In this document: positions 29,083 to 35,670 of the stretch, piece after piece
How positions within the stretch are numbered: the stretch's first letter is position 1
How the letters are laid out: every line of letters begins with the position of its first letter
Sequence record: PZ452591.1
DNA length: 64,000 nt
From: a phage
Strand: one strand, 5' to 3'
Notes under the pieces: model-generated
The model's input: the letters and a program-made list of their open reading frames with translations, nothing else
Databases searched by the model: none
What the model was told of the DNA's origin: nothing
Made by a program: the position numbers and the translations under genes

Positions 29083-29372
29083 TCAGTCTCCAATTTAATG
29101 TTCATAATTCTAGCGTATGATTGTGCCATCTCCGCGCCTCGTTCTATACATTCAAAATCAGAAGAGCACGGGTCATTTTTATAGGTCGTTCTCATAAAAC
29201 TATAGAATTGTTCAGACGATTCTACGCTTTTATTTTCAAAAAGCATATAAACGTGCCTAATACCAGATTCCATAAATTTATCAAAATGAGGATCGACATT
29301 CGCTTCAATCGATGGAGATAAAACAAATGACAATCCTAGCATGGCAAATAGTGCCGTTGCTTTTAAGGCCAT
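29079..29372 (-). CDS. rI: lysis inhibition regulator rI
   Basis: 97 aa, N-terminal signal-anchor MALKATALFAMLGLSFVLSPSIEA; T4 rI size and position. Confidence 0.8.
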   Translation of the reverse strand: MALKATALFAMLGLSFVLSPSIEANVDPHFDKFMESGIRHVYMLFENKSVESSEQFYSFMRTTYKNDPCSSDFECIERGAEMAQSYARIMNIKLETE

Positions 29373-29384
29373 AAAGGCCTCCTA

Positions 29385-29597
29385 TCATTTTTGTCCTGTA
29401 TTTACTTTATGCCGATGCACGGCCTTAACTTTATCAAGGTATTTTTCAAAATTTCGCAATCTAGTATAGTCTGCCGGAGATTGGTTGAGTGATACTTCTC
29501 GACGCAAAGCTGAAATGATATTTCCAACTTCCCTACGAATTTCATCTAATTGAAGAACAGTAAGATTGCGAAGTTGCTTTTCAGTTAATTGTAGCAT
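29385..29597 (-). CDS. hypothetical protein (rI.1 position)
   Basis: 70-aa ORF with late promoter TATAAATA upstream. Confidence 0.5.
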
Positions 29598-29622
29598 ATA
29601 TACCCCTTTAGTTAGATAAACC

Positions 29623-29630
29623 TATTTATA
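29623..29630 (-). promoter_or_regulatory. late promoter (TATAAATA) for rI.1/rI
   Basis: Exact TATAAATA on minus strand ~25 nt upstream of the 29597 start. Confidence 0.55.
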
Positions 29631-29639
29631 ACTTTTGCA

Positions 29640-30221
29640 CTAACCGAGCTTTTTAGTTAATTCATTCCAATGTTTTCTACACAAGGAAACATAAATTTCA
29701 TCACCAATACAGATTTGATTACCTTCTTTAACTGGTGTTCCATCTTCCATTAATCGAGCTGTCATAATCGCTTTTTTGCCGCAATGACAAACTGCCTTTA
29801 GTTCAATAAGTTTATCTGCAATCGCTAAAAGTTCTTTAGAACCTTCAAACAATTTTCCAGCGAAATCAGTCCTTAATCCATAAGCCATAACAGGAACATT
29901 ATATGTATCAACAATTCGGCTCAATTGATGCACCTGTTCAGTTTTTAAAAACTGGGCTTCATCTACAAATACGCAATGAATATCTTTTTGTGCTTCAGCC
30001 CATTTATAGAACTCGAAAATATCCATATCATCTGTAATAATATTTGCTTCCTGCCTAATTCCAATGCGAGAAACGACTTCACAGACAGAATCGCGAGTAT
30101 CAATAGCAGGCTTAAGAACTAATACACTCATTCCACGTTCTTTATAATTGTGCGCAGCAGTCAAAAGAGAAGCAGATTTTCCAGCATTCATTGCTGCATA
30201 AGTAAAAATTAAACTCGCCAT
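29640..30221 (-). CDS. tk: thymidine kinase
   Basis: 193 aa, P-loop AAMNAGKSASLL, Zn-ribbon CxxC...CxxH near C-terminus. Confidence 0.9.
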   Translation of the reverse strand: MASLIFTYAAMNAGKSASLLTAAHNYKERGMSVLVLKPAIDTRDSVCEVVSRIGIRQEANIITDDMDIFEFYKWAEAQKDIHCVFVDEAQFLKTEQVHQLSRIVDTYNVPVMAYGLRTDFAGKLFEGSKELLAIADKLIELKAVCHCGKKAIMTARLMEDGTPVKEGNQICIGDEIYVSLCRKHWNELTKKLG

Positions 30222-30222
30222 C

Positions 30223-30411
30223 TTAGTCCTTAGTTAAATTTTCTAAATATGTTTCTAAATCATTTTCAGCTTTATCGATAGATTTTACTAATTCGTAATA
30301 TGTTTCGGCATCTCCATAATCAGAAGATAATTCAAAAGACAAATCCTTTTCTAAACTAATAATTTCACCAACTAAAAATAATATTTCGTTCTTTTGTTCG
30401 CGAGTAATCAT
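30223..30411 (-). CDS. small acidic helical protein (family of four)
   Basis: 62 aa, MITREQKNEILFLVGEI... Confidence 0.45.
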   Translation of the reverse strand: MITREQKNEILFLVGEIISLEKDLSFELSSDYGDAETYYELVKSIDKAENDLETYLENLTKD

Positions 30412-30593
30412 AAGGAATTTATATAATCAATGAGTTCTTGTTCTTTATTATCGAATTCTTTAGAAAGTTCTTCGTACTCGTTTGCACTAAAAGGACCGCA
30501 TTCATTACAAACTTTTTCCAATTCACTATTTTTATCCATAACTTCGTGGATAAGAGAAAAGAGTTTATCTTTTTGTTCTTTGCTTAAACTCAT
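30408..30593 (-). CDS. small acidic helical protein (family of four)
   Basis: 61 aa, MSLSKEQKDKLFSLIHEV... Confidence 0.45.
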   Translation of the reverse strand: MSLSKEQKDKLFSLIHEVMDKNSELEKVCNECGPFSANEYEELSKEFDNKEQELIDYINSL

Positions 30594-30763
30594 ATATTAA
30601 TTTCCAAAAGTTTTAAAATAATTCGCTTTTGCTTAAATATTTCCACAGTTAAATGATCAGTATCTTTTTGACCAATTCCAATGGCAAAACCTTTATTAAC
30701 AGCGAGTTCAATTAAATTATCAAGTTCACGTAACACTTCATATTGTAACTCAGAACTATTCAT
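30590..30763 (-). CDS. small hypothetical protein (57 aa), not in ORF track
   Basis: Hand translation MNSSELQYEVLRELDNLIELAVNKGF...; ATGA overlaps at both ends with neighbouring genes. Confidence 0.4.
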   Translation of the reverse strand: MNSSELQYEVLRELDNLIELAVNKGFAIGIGQKDTDHLTVEIFKQKRIILKLLEINI

Positions 30764-30972
30764 TTTGGTTTACCTTCTTTAACGAAATCTGGATAAGGAT
30801 AAAATCCCGAATAAAATCCTTCACCTTTATGATTGATGCATCCTTTATTCGAACAATAGCACCAATAATCGAAATCACAAGCCATTTCATCGTTGCATAA
30901 AGCAAAAACAACCGGCCATTTACACTTTTCACAGTGGGCATTTTTAAGAATACTAGTTTGGCTCATAACCAT
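30760..30972 (-). CDS. Cys-rich zinc-finger-like protein
   Basis: 70 aa with 9 Cys (CEKCKW...CNDEMAC...WCYCSNKGC). Confidence 0.5.
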   Translation of the reverse strand: MVMSQTSILKNAHCEKCKWPVVFALCNDEMACDFDYWCYCSNKGCINHKGEGFYSGFYPYPDFVKEGKPK

Positions 30973-31190
30973 GTCACCTTTAAGCAGTATTCTTCTACAT
31001 GCTGTTTACGACCTTTCTTATCAATAAAGGTATATTCAACGAATGTTCCAATGTAGTCTTTATCTACATCATGTGGACTATTAATTGGACATTTAGTACG
31101 GCAAATGCGTTCCCATTGACGAATAATTACTGCCTTATTCTTTGGGTCATACGGATGTGGATAATGTATATTCATAATAATGGTTCCCAA
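30963..31190 (-). CDS. hypothetical protein
   Basis: 75-aa ORF. Confidence 0.45.
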   Translation of the reverse strand: MGTIIMNIHYPHPYDPKNKAVIIRQWERICRTKCPINSPHDVDKDYIGTFVEYTFIDKKGRKQHVEEYCLKVTWL

Positions 31191-31639
31191 TCAACAATCA
31201 CAATTTCTAATTTAGAGGAATATGTATCTAAAATCCCCTCAATAATATCCCAGTTCCCTTTACCTATGCCTGCACCAATCCTAGGCATATAGATTGTAGG
31301 TTTAATTAGTTTATTTTCACCAAACTCATTTAATTCTAACATACAATTCATTAAAGCGGAATACTCAAAATTTGGCCCTGGTTGAAATTGAGTATAAAGA
31401 TTAAAGCAGTAAGCTTTATGAGTCCTAAAGTATTTTTCATAGACTGAATAAGAACCAAGTTTAGTTACATCACCCCATTCAGTCTGTAATTTATCAGCTT
31501 CCAAAATTTTAGGGAAAGCTTTAGTTAATTGACCTGCGACTCCAGCTTTCATCGTGTGAAAACAATTACATCCATGCGCAATATTTTTACCTTCAGCGAA
31601 AAGGGCGACAATATCGCCCTTGATATATTTTACAATCAT
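31172..31639 (-). CDS. TARG1/OARD1-like macrodomain protein (putative ADP-ribose processing enzyme)
   Basis: 155 aa; KGDIVALF...IAHGCNC...KAGVAGQ and YMPRIGAGIGKGNW resemble the TARG1 macrodomain motifs as recalled. Confidence 0.6.
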   Translation of the reverse strand: MIVKYIKGDIVALFAEGKNIAHGCNCFHTMKAGVAGQLTKAFPKILEADKLQTEWGDVTKLGSYSVYEKYFRTHKAYCFNLYTQFQPGPNFEYSALMNCMLELNEFGENKLIKPTIYMPRIGAGIGKGNWDIIEGILDTYSSKLEIVIVDWEPLL

Positions 31640-31983
31640 CTAGTACTCAATCCTCGATTATAAGAATCTACCAAACGGTCAACCATTGAATGACAAGCGG
31701 CTTTATCTTTCTCCTCCGCAACTGAACATTCTAAGGTATTCCACTTTTTAGCATATCGTTTTAATAATGTATCGTTTTTGTATCTACTTGATTTATCTCT
31801 TTCTCCGTCTTTATATGCATATATTAATTTCTGTGCAAATTCAGCTTGACATGCTTTATTTTTCCCACAATAATCTGCCGCAGTGCGGTTTACATATTCT
31901 CTAATTTCAGTATATGATGTATCTGCTGACGCAGAAGCAGAAAATGAAATTAATCCTATACATAAAACCAAAATTTTAGTCAT
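31636..31983 (-). CDS. small secreted protein (T4 vs position)
   Basis: 115 aa with N-terminal signal peptide MTKILVLCIGLISFSASASA and 4 Cys. Confidence 0.5.
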   Translation of the reverse strand: MTKILVLCIGLISFSASASADTSYTEIREYVNRTAADYCGKNKACQAEFAQKLIYAYKDGERDKSSRYKNDTLLKRYAKKWNTLECSVAEEKDKAACHSMVDRLVDSYNRGLSTR

Positions 31984-32521
31984 TTACTATTTCCAAAAGT
32001 TTATTATTTTTAAGGTAATTAGCCTTTTCTAGGACTTCAGAAGCATATTTAGAACCAGCTTTAACATTCCATCCCGAATTATAAGAGGATATTGCTTTTC
32101 TTATATCGCCCTTATGTATATTTAACCAATAAGAAAGTTCAATGTACGCCCAGGAAGCTGAATTGGATCGTTTATTCAACATTCTTTTTATTTCAGCATC
32201 GGTCATATTATAACCAAGTTCCTTAACTCTTGCTCGCATAGTAGGCAAATAATTTTGGAACATTCCATAAGCGTGATGCTTTGGTTTAGATTTTAAATTA
32301 ACTCCGCCAGAGCTTTCTTGCCATAAAATAGCAGCCATTATATGACCTAATCCGCTCTTGTGGATATTTTTGTGTGTTTTATATTTTCCATCCTTAGAAA
32401 ATTGTTCCCCGAATTGATACGCGTAACGCATGTTATCGAGTTGGACATTACTGAAAGTATGCTCGGAGCTATGTGCCATCATAGAAATGGCCAATAGACC
32501 AGCGAGTAGTGCTTTTCTCAT
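31976..32521 (-). CDS. lytic transglycosylase-like protein (SLT domain) with signal peptide
   Basis: 181 aa; ESSGG, YGMFQ and SYNSG motifs typical of SLT/family 1 transglycosylases. Confidence 0.6.
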   Translation of the reverse strand: MRKALLAGLLAISMMAHSSEHTFSNVQLDNMRYAYQFGEQFSKDGKYKTHKNIHKSGLGHIMAAILWQESSGGVNLKSKPKHHAYGMFQNYLPTMRARVKELGYNMTDAEIKRMLNKRSNSASWAYIELSYWLNIHKGDIRKAISSYNSGWNVKAGSKYASEVLEKANYLKNNKLLEIVND

Positions 32522-32528
32522 GCTTACC

Positions 32529-32990
32529 TCATTGAGTTTTAATTACTGCTTTAGAAGCCTTTCCTGGTAAACGGCGACTGTTGATAATTGCCATCCTACA
32601 TTGAAGCGACGGGTCTTTGAACTTCGCATTAGGTTTACAAACTGTAAATCCAAGCCAAAGATTTCCATCTGTGATTTCTAAACGTCCAGGACGATATTCA
32701 ACCCCATCAATAAAATCCTCGTCAATGTCAGGACGCGGAGGCATACTCAGGAATTCATTAACTTCTAAAACATGGTCTTTTATTTTATGGAATAATTCAA
32801 AAACGTATGTCTCATCAATCTCCCGTTGAATTGCGCGATCAAGAAGATGCTGAGAATATTTTAGATGAAACGATGAGACTCCTGCTGCTTTTGATGCCTC
32901 ACGAATCTCATTGTTAATTTGACGAAACTCCGACTCAAAGTGACGACGAAGCTTATTTCGACGGATAAAAACTTCTGTGTTGATAGTCAT
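32529..32990 (-). CDS. regB: endoribonuclease RegB
   Basis: 153 aa at the T4 regB position with strong early promoter upstream. Confidence 0.65.
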   Translation of the reverse strand: MTINTEVFIRRNKLRRHFESEFRQINNEIREASKAAGVSSFHLKYSQHLLDRAIQREIDETYVFELFHKIKDHVLEVNEFLSMPPRPDIDEDFIDGVEYRPGRLEITDGNLWLGFTVCKPNAKFKDPSLQCRMAIINSRRLPGKASKAVIKTQ

Positions 32991-33018
32991 GTTATTCTCC
33001 TCTTAACTGATAGAAAAA

Positions 33019-33047
33019 TTATACCACAGTCAAGAGGAAAAGTAAAC
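33019..33047 (-). promoter_or_regulatory. early promoter upstream of regB
   Basis: GTTTACT-17 nt-TGGTATAAT (extended -10 consensus) on minus strand. Confidence 0.6.
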
Positions 33048-33049
33048 AG

Positions 33050-33328
33050 TTATTCTTTAAATCTAATCAATTTATTCATAGACTTTGAAACTTCTGCACG
33101 AACCTCATGTAGATTTTTGAGCTGCTCAAGACGCTGCGCATAGTAAGCAATTTCATCTTCTTCGAGACAGTCCTGTGAATCTTCTTTAAGATAACGCGCA
33201 TAGTCCTGGAAAGCGTTACGAACTACTTCCTGGAAGTCATCAAGACTTTGAATTTTCTTAGGAGCAACAGATACACGACGAGGGGCAGTATAATACTCAT
33301 AACCAAACCCTGCGCTTAATTGAGCCAT
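33050..33328 (-). CDS. hypothetical protein (vs.3/vs.4 region)
   Basis: Likely start M15 ([13 protein letters not shown]...), 92 aa; coupled to upstream ORF. Confidence 0.45.
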
Positions 33329-33630
33329 TAGTATTTTTCCTCTGGTTGGAACACTGCACGACAAGCCCACATACTGGCTTCTTTGAGTTTCGTTTTAGCA
33401 ATAGTTAACTGATCGAGGCTTTCAGCATAATTCTTCGCGAATTCACAGTCTTCACAATTATCTAGTGCTTCCCAGAATTCATCATATAAAGCATCAAAGA
33501 TAAGCCCTAAACGAACTTCAGCATCTTTGATAGCATTCACTTTACTGATTTTATCGTCAGTATGTGGCTTATAACCTTTAATGTCTTCAATCATATTTGA
33601 CTTCCTCACCAGTACATAAATCGTATTCAA
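33328..33630 (-). CDS. hypothetical protein (vs.3/vs.4 region)
   Basis: 100-aa ORF (88 aa from M13). Confidence 0.45.
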
Positions 33631-33808
33631 CTAAACGAATAGGTTCATGAATGCCATATCCCTGAACAGAAATTTCTGTCGTAGGATAAATTCCATCAAT
33701 ATCACCCATATTCCAGGATTCATTAAATTGTTGTTCGCCTGAATTACTAAACCACTCGGCGAAAGCATTTAGCACATCTTCAGAACCTTCAATAATTATC
33801 TTTGCCAT
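33587..33808 (-). CDS. hypothetical protein
   Basis: 73-aa acidic ORF. Confidence 0.45.
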   Translation of the reverse strand: MAKIIIEGSEDVLNAFAEWFSNSGEQQFNESWNMGDIDGIYPTTEISVQGYGIHEPIRLVEYDLCTGEEVKYD

Positions 33809-34170
33809 TACAAACTCTCGGTAAAGGTACGAGCGATAACGTCGCGCTGCTGTTCCGGAGTCAGAGAGTTAAAGCGAACTGCATAACCGGATACACGGAT
33901 GGTCAGCTGCGGATATTTTTCCGGATGCTTAACTGCATCTTCCAGAGTTTCACGACGCAGAACGTTAACGTTCAGGTGTTGACCACCTTCAATTTTAACT
34001 GTAGGCTGTGGCTCAATTTCAATTTCACGGGCATGCAAACCATAGAAAATTTCTGGGTCTACAAAAGAGTCCTCTTTAAAGGTTTTAGAAACGATAATTC
34101 GTGCTTGAATACCATCTTCAAAATAAATAGTGCCTTTGTGTGTGCCTTCAAGAATTTGATATGCTTTCAT
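33808..34170 (-). CDS. autonomous glycyl radical cofactor (GrcA/YfiD-like)
   Basis: 120 aa; C-terminal [25 protein letters not shown] is the pyruvate formate-lyase glycyl radical signature. Confidence 0.7.
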
Positions 34171-34177
34171 ATAAACC

Positions 34178-34507
34178 TCAATTAGAAAATAAATTTATCC
34201 AGGATTGTTCTTTAATTAAAAACGGCTCAGAATCATATGCCATTAAACTTTGGGTAATTAATCCTTTAAAAGGTCCATCAATAAATTCCATGGTAAAATA
34301 TGGAATTTTATTCATTAGCCGTGCATTAGGAGCAGTGCACAAAACTCTGCATCCTTTGAATACACCTTTTTGTAATTTGTATTGCTTGGGATAAAATTCG
34401 CTTAAAATGTTGTTATTTGCCAAAATTTCAAAATGATTCACCAATTTATTTTTAATAGTTTTTGGCGAAAAATAAAGATATTCGAAAAGCTGAGTGTCTG
34501 TCATCAT
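34178..34507 (-). CDS. hypothetical protein
   Basis: ATG at 34507 overlaps stop of upstream gene (ATGA), 109 aa. Confidence 0.45.
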
Positions 34508-35043
34508 TGCATTCCAATTACGAAAAACTGTGGACGAGTAATACCACCAATACAACATTTAATATTACAGCAGCAGTGTACAGTGTCAATATGGACACTA
34601 TAAATCTTATCCATATCAGGAGATTTGACAGGCTCATCAATTATATATAAAATTCGCGAAAGCGATAAACCTCTGAACTTGCTTCCTTTATTACCAATAA
34701 AACTGCGCACAGAATCAGTAAATAAACGAAAACGTATATCATCATTAGAATAACGCGAAAATTCCTTTTTAATGTTATTTGCAGAAATTTTAGCGTAAGC
34801 TGAAGTATTAGAAAGAACAATAACTGTTCCGCCATCATATAACCAATTAGCAGCAAAGTTAGTCACAGCAATTGATTTACCGGATTGACGTCCACCATCT
34901 ATACGAAGTGTGCAATACTGTTTAAGTAAGTCTTCAAATGGTGGGATATAATCGTTTTTACAAATTTCTTCTACTCTAGCATCAGAATGGTGTGTAAAAG
35001 CATTCATCAGGGATAGATAAGGACCAGTTAAAAATGTTCTCAT
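34504..35043 (-). CDS. small P-loop NTPase with C-terminal Cys cluster
   Basis: Walker A GGRQSGKS, Walker B ILYIIDE, C-terminal HCCCNIKCC; ATG at 35043 has SD GAGAGAA (track start 35091 lies in a repeat). Confidence 0.55.
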   Translation of the reverse strand: MRTFLTGPYLSLMNAFTHHSDARVEEICKNDYIPPFEDLLKQYCTLRIDGGRQSGKSIAVTNFAANWLYDGGTVIVLSNTSAYAKISANNIKKEFSRYSNDDIRFRLFTDSVRSFIGNKGSKFRGLSLSRILYIIDEPVKSPDMDKIYSVHIDTVHCCCNIKCCIGGITRPQFFVIGMQ

Positions 35044-35079
35044 TTTATTCTCTCTAGGTTTGGGCCATTCCGTGGCGCA

Positions 35080-35111
35080 TGAATTGTCCATTTCTGTATT
35101 TACCCATTACC
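35080..35111. repeat. 32-bp repeat copy A (flanks 157-aa internal-protein gene)
   Basis: TGAATTGTCCATTTCTGTATTTACCCATTACC; 30/32 identical to copy B. Confidence 0.7.
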
Positions 35112-35196
35112 GCACTTGGGCTCGACCTTATTACAGGTTGGCGGGAATCCCTCACAGAATCATGAGGTCCAGGTTGTTCCCATATTTCTTATTTGC

Positions 35197-35670
35197 TTAT
35201 TTGAACGATTTAACGTACTGAATAGAACCTTTACTATTCACGAAAGCGATTTTACCATTTTTATTATACATGGTAGCAGTACGCTGATAGCCATAAGTTT
35301 GCTTACCAGATTGATAACCAACTAATGCAAAATTATCTTCACCCATTTTATTCTGTTTAGCGCGAATGCGTTCATGACCATGTGCCATAAGAACCTTAGC
35401 ATCACCAGTTGCAATGGATCGACGAGTTTTTTCATCTTCAACTGTATTAACAAAGTCGTCAAATGAATCAAATTTAGCATGAGATTTATTATACAGTTTT
35501 CCATCTACTGCATAATTATATCCTTGTACATCCATCTCAACTTCTGTACCATCATCTAATACAGCAGTAATTTTCTGTCCTTTTTTAAATTTCAAAAGAT
35601 CAGTAAAAGATTCAGCAATAATTTGAGAATTAATAGCTGCCTCAGTAATAAATTCTTGATATGTTTTCAT
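35197..35670 (-). CDS. internal-protein-like capsid-targeted protein (157 aa)
   Basis: N-terminal capsid targeting sequence MKTYQEFITE shared with T4 internal proteins. Confidence 0.6.
   Translation of the reverse strand: MKTYQEFITEAAINSQIIAESFTDLLKFKKGQKITAVLDDGTEVEMDVQGYNYAVDGKLYNKSHAKFDSFDDFVNTVEDEKTRRSIATGDAKVLMAHGHERIRAKQNKMGEDNFALVGYQSGKQTYGYQRTATMYNKNGKIAFVNSKGSIQYVKSFK

What the first reader, a model, noticed from the sequence alone, without database searches (positions are those of the whole stretch)
31172..31639. TARG1/OARD1-like macrodomain gene in the tk-regB accessory block
The 155-aa ORF has KGDIVALF...IAHGCNC...KAGVAGQ near the N-terminus and YMPRIGAGIGKGNW near the C-terminus. 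These align with the two signature regions of the TARG1-type macrodomain (KGDLF...LAHCIS...MGAGIA and PRIGCGLDRLQW) as I recall them. The Lys in THKAY aligns with the catalytic Lys, but the Asp of the GLDR loop is not conserved, so the chemistry may differ. Macrodomains of this type remove ADP-ribose from proteins and from ADP-ribosylated DNA (as the DarG antitoxin does). A phage copy could counter an ADP-ribosylating defence such as DarT, or edit the phage's own Alt/Mod ADP-ribosylation marks.
Basis: partly seen in the sequence, partly recalled or inferred. Interest (0 to 1): 0.65.

Follow-up and report, generated by a model that had tools for sequence, protein, structure and literature searches.

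The report
T-even phage tk.4 (AdfM) macrodomain gene
This 155-residue gene is the T-even phage gene tk.4, a macrodomain enzyme recently shown in phage T4 to protect the phage from the bacterial DarTG2 DNA-ADP-ribosylating defence, so the finding is real but already known.

Summary
It is tk.4 of a T-even phage, 100% identical to T6/RB51/RB68 Tk.4 and 98.7% to T4 Tk.4.

A 2025 preprint found tk.4 as the only T4 transposon-screen hit under DarTG2. A clean knockout became DarTG2-sensitive, and the gene was named adfM.

The catalytic detail is wrong. The Lys of THKAY (K75) is unconserved. TARG1 K84 and DarG K80 align to Gln84, which is invariant in 147 of 147 relatives. TARG1 D125 aligns to Gly126. 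This is the Gln-type site of SCO6735, a thymidine-ADP-ribose DNA hydrolase in which Gln85 is essential.

Bacterial relatives are stand-alone genes with no DarT2-like neighbour detected. PhiKZ "AdfM" is a different, Lys-type, DarG-like macrodomain.

This window's allele differs from T4's at two residues of the GxG binding loop (K31-A32 versus G31-S32) and is untested.

The parts
31172..31639 (-). tk.4 / adfM coding sequence, 155 aa plus stop: a stand-alone macrodomain
31562..31576 (-). Codons 22-26, HGCNC motif. His22 corresponds to SCO6735 His24, TARG1 His32 and Poa1p His23. Asn25 corresponds to SCO6735 Asn27 and DarG Asn22, the distal-ribose Asn.
   Evidence: hhalign to SCO6735, TARG1 and DarG. 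Asn25 is present in 67/67 phage-rich and 80/80 bacterial relatives; His22 in 62/67 and 80/80. SCO6735 N27S and DarG N22A lose activity.
31535..31552 (-). Codons 30-35, M-K-A-G-V-A, the GxG ADP-ribose-binding loop. This allele has K31-A32 where T4 has G31-S32.
   Evidence: Protein and DNA comparison with T4. The family consensus is M-G-A-G-I-A, with G at position 31 in 59/67 and K in 3/67. 11 of 16 nucleotide differences from T4 fall in nt 84-105 of the gene.
31388..31402 (-). Codons 80-84, NLYTQ. Gln84 occupies the position of TARG1 Lys84, DarG Lys80 and SCO6735 Gln85.
   Evidence: hhalign alignments. Gln84 is present in 67/67 and 80/80 relatives. SCO6735 Q85A and Q85E are inactive.
31250..31285 (-). 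Codons 119-130, PRIGAGIGKGNW, the diphosphate-binding loop. Gly122 and Gly124 correspond to SCO6735 Gly126 and Gly128. Gly126 occupies the position of TARG1 Asp125.
   Evidence: hhalign. P119, I121, G122 and G124 are invariant, and position 126 is Ala or Gly only.
31651..31655 (-). GAGGA Shine-Dalgarno-like sequence 11 nt upstream of the tk.4 ATG, inside the end of vs
   Evidence: Read directly from the sequence. Its function is inferred.
31636..31983 (-). vs, the upstream neighbour (context). Its stop overlaps the tk.4 start (ATGA).
   Evidence: ORF list and T4 annotation.
30963..31175 (-). tk.3, the downstream neighbour (context). Its ATG overlaps the tk.4 stop (ATGA).
   Evidence: ORF list and T4 annotation, 70-aa tk.3.

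Best explanation
The gene is tk.4 (adfM), a stand-alone macrodomain made by T-even phages to defeat the bacterial DarTG2 toxin-antitoxin defence. DarT2 attaches ADP-ribose to thymidine in single-stranded phage DNA and blocks replication. Tk.4 most likely binds the ADP-ribose in its macro cleft (the GxG loop at residues 30-35 and the PRIGAG loop at 119-124) and hydrolyses the ribose-thymine bond, which restores the DNA. It would do this by the lysine-independent route described for SCO6735, not by the TARG1 Lys/Asp or DarG Lys mechanism. In that route Gln84, held in place by Asn25, positions the distal ribose, and a water molecule starts the cleavage. What is shown: gene identity and orthology, the macro fold, the active-site residue mapping, and (from the literature, for the T4 allele) the requirement for resistance to DarTG2. 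What is inferred: hydrolase activity on ADP-ribosyl-thymidine DNA, the Gln-type mechanism, and that the T6-type K31-A32 allele in this window behaves like the T4 allele.
Against: No biochemical assay of T4 or T6 Tk.4 is reported; the preprint says only that enzymatic removal 'seems likely'. Tk.4 lacks the 5-residue-longer 'mobile loop' that the SCO6735 authors link to high DNA activity: Gln84 to Tyr92 is 9 residues, against 15-16 in SCO6735 and BT1257. It also lacks the Lys equivalent to SCO6735 Lys34 and DarG Lys29, which falls on Ala32. This window's allele replaces the first Gly of the GxG loop with Lys and has not been tested. The genetic evidence is a preprint that used one DarTG2 system.
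Confidence: 0.75

Rival explanations
1. Tk.4 protects mainly without catalysis, by binding and blocking DarT2 or by shielding modified DNA.
For: Catalytically dead SCO6735 Q85A inhibits DarT in vitro more strongly than dead DarG or TARG1 (PMC9411070). Other anti-DarT factors such as AdfB act by direct binding.
Against: The full set of ADP-ribose-binding and catalytic-site residues is invariant across 147 phage and bacterial relatives. The 80 sampled bacterial relatives have no DarT2-like gene within the roughly 4 kb of flank fetched on each side. This pattern fits an enzyme better than a toxin-specific binder. Tk.4 also lacks the DarG C-terminal DarT-binding domain.
Confidence: 0.08
2. Its main job is small-molecule ADP-ribose metabolism, with the anti-DarT2 effect as a side activity. 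This would be Poa1p-like ADP-ribose-1''-phosphate phosphatase or O-acetyl-ADP-ribose deacetylase activity, perhaps feeding NAD+ recycling.
Against: The 'phosphatase' name is propagated annotation and has not been tested. In the T4 screen the only reported conditional phenotype of tk.4 was under DarTG2. T-even phages do not have these NAD salvage genes next to tk.4. Poa1p has Ser, not Gln, at the key position.
Confidence: 0.1
3. It erases the phage's own ADP-ribosylation or RNAylation marks, which Alt, ModA and ModB place on host proteins.
For: T4 encodes three ADP-ribosyltransferases. A phage-encoded eraser would be a logical partner.
Against: From established knowledge, Alt and Mod modify arginine. 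The characterised ALC1/TARG1-like macrodomains act on Asp/Glu esters and on thymidine, not on Arg-ADP-ribose. tk.4 is not linked to alt or mod. No phenotype was reported without DarTG2.
Confidence: 0.04

Closest known systems
T4 Tk.4 = AdfM (anti-DarT factor Macrodomain), bioRxiv 10.1101/2025.11.20.689424
   Same: Orthologue: same locus between vs and tk.3, 153 of 155 residues identical, and all conserved active-site residues identical.
   Different: Two adjacent substitutions in the GxG loop: K31-A32 here and in T6, RB51 and RB68, against G31-S32 in T4 and T2. Only the T4 allele has been tested, and only genetically.
SCO6735 (Streptomyces coelicolor) and Bt_1257 (PDB 5E3B, 2FG1/2AFC), the Gln-type ALC1-like macrodomains
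   Different: Only 21-29% identity. Tk.4 lacks the extended mobile loop and the Lys34 equivalent. SCO6735 is a cellular, damage-induced genome protector, whereas Tk.4 is a phage counter-defence gene.
DarG antitoxin macrodomain (Thermus aquaticus 5M31/5M3E, M. tuberculosis 5M3I)
   Different: DarG Lys80 is replaced by Gln84. There is no C-terminal DarT-binding domain. NCBIfam DarG scores 25 bits against a cutoff of 250. The gene is not paired with DarT.
Human TARG1/OARD1 (PDB 4J5R, 2LGR)
   Same: Top Foldseek hit, hhalign probability 98.2%, and shared KGD...AH...GAG...PRIGxG...W framework. TARG1 also removes thymidine ADP-ribose.
   Different: Both catalytic residues are absent: Lys84 aligns to Gln84 and Asp125 to Gly126.
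PhiKZ gp104, also named AdfM (Cell Rep 2026, PMC13309987)
   Same: A phage-encoded stand-alone macrodomain that counters DarTG2. Removal of ADP-ribose from DarT2-modified DNA was shown in vitro.
   Different: A different subfamily. It is Lys-type (FPTKDNW) and close to DarG (E 9e-25 to Mtb DarG). It is only remotely related to Tk.4: hhalign E 7e-10, and BLASTP finds 30% identity over 23 residues. The shared name covers two independent recruitments.
Yeast Poa1p ADP-ribose-1''-phosphate phosphatase (PDB 6LFQ)
   Different: Poa1p has Ser, not Gln, at the key position. It acts on a small-molecule phosphatase substrate, which is not known to be relevant in T-even infection.

Membership tests
Macro domain (Pfam PF01661) | Profile score above Pfam's gathering cutoff | tested here: met
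   25.0 bits against a cutoff of 22, E 1.9e-5, residues 22-132.
Macro domain (Pfam PF01661) | Three-layer alpha/beta/alpha macro fold | tested here: met
ALC1/TARG1-like macrodomain class | Closer in structure and sequence to TARG1, DarG, SCO6735 and Poa1p than to MacroD, viral or PARG types | tested here: met
TARG1/OARD1 | Catalytic Lys84 | tested here: not met
   It aligns to Gln84, which is invariant in 147 relatives.
TARG1/OARD1 | Catalytic Asp125 | tested here: not met
   It aligns to Gly126. Only Ala or Gly occur at this position in the family.
DarG antitoxin (NCBIfam NF048014) | Equivalog score cutoff and two-domain architecture (macro domain plus C-terminal DarT-binding domain) | tested here: not met
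   25.1 bits against a cutoff of 250. The match covers profile positions 2-146 of 338 only, and the protein is 155 aa.
DarG antitoxin (NCBIfam NF048014) | Catalytic Lys80 | tested here: not met
   hhalign pairs FNFPTK with FNLYTQ, so Lys80 aligns to Gln84. DarG numbering was checked against published residues.
DarG antitoxin (NCBIfam NF048014) | Encoded next to a DarT toxin gene | tested here: not met
   The phage locus has no DarT. In 80 bacterial relatives, tblastn with P. aeruginosa DarT2 found nothing better than E 2 in the roughly 4 kb of flank fetched per side, and there is no recurrent neighbour. A single-sequence search could miss very divergent DarT genes.
SCO6735/Bt_1257 Gln-type subclass | Gln at the catalytic-Lys position, with the supporting Asn, His and Gly-x-Gly residues | tested here: met
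   Gln84, Asn25, His22, Gly122 and Gly124 align to SCO6735 Gln85, Asn27, His24, Gly126 and Gly128.
SCO6735/Bt_1257 Gln-type subclass | Extended 'mobile loop' after the Gln, about 5 residues longer than in DarG and TARG1 | tested here: not met
   hhalign places 5-6-residue gaps in Tk.4. The Gln84-to-Tyr92 span is 9 residues in T-even-type proteins and 12 in most bacterial relatives.
SCO6735/Bt_1257 Gln-type subclass | Hydrolysis of DarT-made thymidine ADP-ribose on DNA | not testable with these tools
   This needs an enzyme assay. It is supported indirectly by the T4 knockout phenotype.
T4 AdfM (Tk.4) | Orthology: same locus and near-identical sequence | tested here: met
   98.7% identity, with the gene order vs - tk.4 - tk.3.
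T4 AdfM (Tk.4) | Required for plating on DarTG2 hosts | not testable with these tools
   Shown for the T4 allele only. The K31-A32 allele in this window is untested.
Poa1p-like ADP-ribose-1''-phosphate phosphatase | Residues mutated in the solved structures (His23, Ser30, Phe152) and phosphatase activity | tested here: inconclusive
   His23 aligns to His22 and Ser30 to Thr29. Phe152 was not mapped and activity cannot be tested here.

The most novel reading that the evidence does not exclude
The GxG binding loop of Tk.4 may be an arms-race hot spot. The T6-type allele in this window (K31-A32, carried on a short mosaic patch of 11 nucleotide changes within 22 nt) may have a different substrate range or DarT2-variant range from the tested T4 allele (G31-S32). 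That would parallel the single-residue on/off alleles of AdfA and AdfB. More broadly, T-even AdfM would be a lysine-independent, short-loop variant of the Gln-type macrodomain, recruited independently of the DarG-like PhiKZ AdfM.
Probability: 0.2. Interest if true: 0.5.

Novelty: already known. Interest (0 to 1): 0.25.

Why it matters
The gene shows how T-even phages stack enzymatic erasers against DNA ADP-ribosylating defences: AdfA, the NADAR protein AdfN against DarTG1, and the macrodomain Tk.4/AdfM against DarTG2. The function is already published for T4, so this finding mainly confirms it. This analysis adds four points. First, Tk.4 has a Gln-type active site like SCO6735, not the Lys-type site of DarG or TARG1. 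Second, it descends from stand-alone cellular macrodomains and not from a DarG antitoxin. Third, the two phage proteins named AdfM belong to different subfamilies. Fourth, T-even phages carry at least two alleles of the substrate-binding loop. All four are modest refinements that can be tested at the bench.

Tried and rejected
The sigma-70 promoter scan of 29300-35500 was uninformative: 24 sites found against 23.9 expected. No statement about expression is based on it.

A first regular-expression count of the YTQ motif in bacterial relatives was unreliable because it matched earlier YS/YT dipeptides. I replaced it with a MAFFT alignment.

I looked for DarT next to bacterial relatives, to test an 'orphan DarG antitoxin' origin, and found none. 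I rejected that origin.

I tried to read LeRoux et al. 2022 for T6 sensitivity to DarTG2, but the paper is not held.

The HMMER pairwise alignment to BT1257 misplaces the NLYTQ strand by several residues. The profile alignment corrects this.

I considered and rejected strict TARG1 or DarG membership, because the catalytic residues are absent.

Full report
**Observation.** The window carries an ATG-started ORF of 155 codons at 31172..31639 on the minus strand. The 1.2-kb surrounding stretch is 99.3% identical to phage AR1 and 99.2% to T6. The protein is 100% identical to Tk.4 of T6, RB51, RB68 and others, and 98.7% to Tk.4 of T4 and T2. In T4 the same gene lies between vs and tk.3, in the order regB, vs.1, vs, tk.4, tk.3, tk.2, tk.1, tk. 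The window shows the same order, with ATGA start/stop overlaps on both sides of tk.4.

**What it is.** Pfam Macro (PF01661) matches at 25 bits, above its cutoff of 22. PHROG 335, labelled 'phosphatase', matches at 1.4e-64.
- Sequence matches among solved structures are BT1257 (2e-8), yeast Poa1p (3e-5), human TARG1/OARD1 (3e-3), SCO6735 (4e-3) and Thermus DarG (1e-2).
- An AlphaFold model built on 67 diverse relatives has mean pLDDT 95.5.
- Foldseek ranks TARG1, Poa1p, BT1257 and DarG first, at E 1e-9 to 7e-7.

So the protein is a macrodomain of the ALC1/TARG1-like class. The A1pp/macro assignment of tk.4 dates from 2006 (PMC1524935).

**Active site.** I confirmed my recalled TARG1 sequence against PDB 2LGR. 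I recovered the BT1257, SCO6735 and Taq DarG sequences from printed PDB alignments. I checked their numbering against residues named in the papers.

Profile alignments of the Tk.4 family all place the strand-end motif NLYTQ opposite the same segment in each reference:
- TARG1 YLITK
- DarG FNFPTK
- SCO6735 and BT1257 NMIGQ

Gln84 therefore occupies the position of TARG1 Lys84, DarG Lys80 and SCO6735 Gln85. TARG1 Asp125 aligns to Gly126. Gln84 is invariant in 67 of 67 mostly phage relatives and in 80 of 80 bacterial relatives. So are Asn25, Gly122 and Gly124. Position 126 is only Ala or Gly.

**Published mechanism for this active-site type.** SCO6735 lacks the TARG1 Lys/Asp pair and the DarG Lys. 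It still removes DarT-made ADP-ribose from thymidine in DNA, in vitro and in cells. Q85A and Q85E are inactive, and N27S is nearly inactive. The authors propose that Gln85, locked by Asn27, positions the distal ribose while a water molecule starts the cleavage (PMC9411070).

Tk.4 keeps these residues but differs in two ways. It lacks the 5-residue-longer mobile loop of SCO6735 and BT1257. It also lacks the Lys34 equivalent, which falls on Ala32.

**Function.** A November 2025 preprint reports a T4 transposon screen on a DarTG2-expressing host. It gave tk.4 as the single significant hit. A clean tk.4 knockout became sensitive to DarTG2. The gene was named adfM, and enzymatic removal of ADP-ribose from DNA was described as likely but was not assayed (bioRxiv 10.1101/2025.11.20.689424). 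An earlier paper had shown that T4 lacking adfA and adfN remains DarTG2-resistant, and it predicted a further factor (PMC11825919).

The hydrolase step, and the Gln-type chemistry I propose for it, are inferences.

**Relation to DarG and to the other AdfM.** Tk.4 hits the PADLOC DarG model (1.1e-7) and the NCBIfam DarG model (25 bits against a cutoff of 250). Both matches cover only the N-terminal macro part.

In the genome collection at least 501 stretches encode relatives. The best 80 are stand-alone ORFs of about 150 residues. None has a DarT2-like gene within the roughly 4 kb of flank fetched on each side. No neighbour family recurs in more than 10 of the 80 loci. This argues that Tk.4 came from stand-alone cellular macrodomains, not from a DarG antitoxin.

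PhiKZ gp104 is also named AdfM, and it removes DarT2-made ADP-ribose in vitro (PMC13309987). It is a close DarG relative with the FPTK Lys motif (E 9e-25 to Mtb DarG). It is only remotely related to Tk.4. The two AdfM proteins are separate recruitments with different catalytic residues.

**Allele in this window.** The protein differs from T4 Tk.4 only at residues 31-32: K-A here against G-S in T4. These lie in the GxG ADP-ribose-binding loop. Eleven of the 16 nucleotide differences in the gene lie within nt 84-105, which looks like a short mosaic patch. Lys at position 31 is rare in the family: 3 of 67 and 3 of 80. The exact protein occurs in 20 phage records, including T6, RB51 and RB68, so it is not a sequencing artefact. 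Its activity has not been tested.

**Rivals.**
- Non-catalytic inhibition of DarT2 is possible, because dead SCO6735 inhibits DarT. It fits poorly with invariant catalytic residues in relatives that show no DarT2-like neighbour.
- A Poa1p-like small-molecule role is suggested by the propagated 'phosphatase' label and by adjacency to PRPP synthetase and NAMPT genes in two unrelated phages. It has no support in T-even phages.
- Erasure of Alt/Mod marks has no support, and the linkage chemistry is unfavourable. That last point rests on established knowledge and was not tested here.

**Verdict.** The feature is real and correctly recognised as a TARG1-class macrodomain, and its anti-DarT role is already published. 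Novelty is 'already known'. The residue-level refinements and the allele difference are minor additions.

Noticed in passing
window 31636..31983 (-) and 31976..32521 (-): The vs product, annotated 'valyl-tRNA synthetase modifier', begins MTKILVLCIGLISFSASASA followed by DT. This looks like a cleavable Sec signal peptide, which is odd for a protein said to act on a cytoplasmic enzyme. vs.1 also starts with a signal-like segment, and a 2006 survey gave it only a weak SLT transglycosylase match. The HIDEN-SEQ preprint reports vs as the T4 gene most depleted in minimal medium.
   Followed up: no
L082:404-3974 and L083:2632-5662: In Acinetobacter phage B09_Aci05 and Vibrio phage GRLPWR, the Tk.4-family macrodomain gene directly abuts PRPP synthetase and nicotinamide/nicotinate phosphoribosyltransferase genes, with start/stop overlaps and an RNA ligase gene upstream. 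This hints at a link to NAD+ salvage in those phages.
   Followed up: partly
window 31535..31556 (-), nt 84-105 of tk.4: Eleven of the 16 nucleotide differences from T4 tk.4 cluster in 22 nt around the GxG loop. Synonymous changes flank the two replaced codons, which looks like a micro-mosaic recombination patch. A paper on T4 laboratory stocks also lists a Ser36Gly polymorphism in tk.4, four residues away (PMC8573959).
   Followed up: partly
literature; PhiKZ gp104 versus window 31172..31639: Two independent reports use the name AdfM for different proteins. T4 Tk.4 is Gln-type and BT1257/SCO6735-like. PhiKZ gp104 is Lys-type and DarG-like. They are only remotely related.
   Followed up: yes
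window 31172..31639 (annotation in public records): Public records label this gene in many ways: phosphatase, hypothetical protein, macro domain protein, Poa1p-like family protein, or high-affinity ADP-ribose binding module. The 'phosphatase' label is propagated from PHROG 335 and Poa1p and is probably misleading.
   Followed up: partly
window 31601..31621 (+): A terminator-like hairpin (8 pairs, 5 of them GC, followed by a T-rich tail) lies on the plus strand, antisense to the 5' end of tk.4. Seven such sites were found in the scanned region against 3.8 expected, so it may be chance.
   Followed up: no
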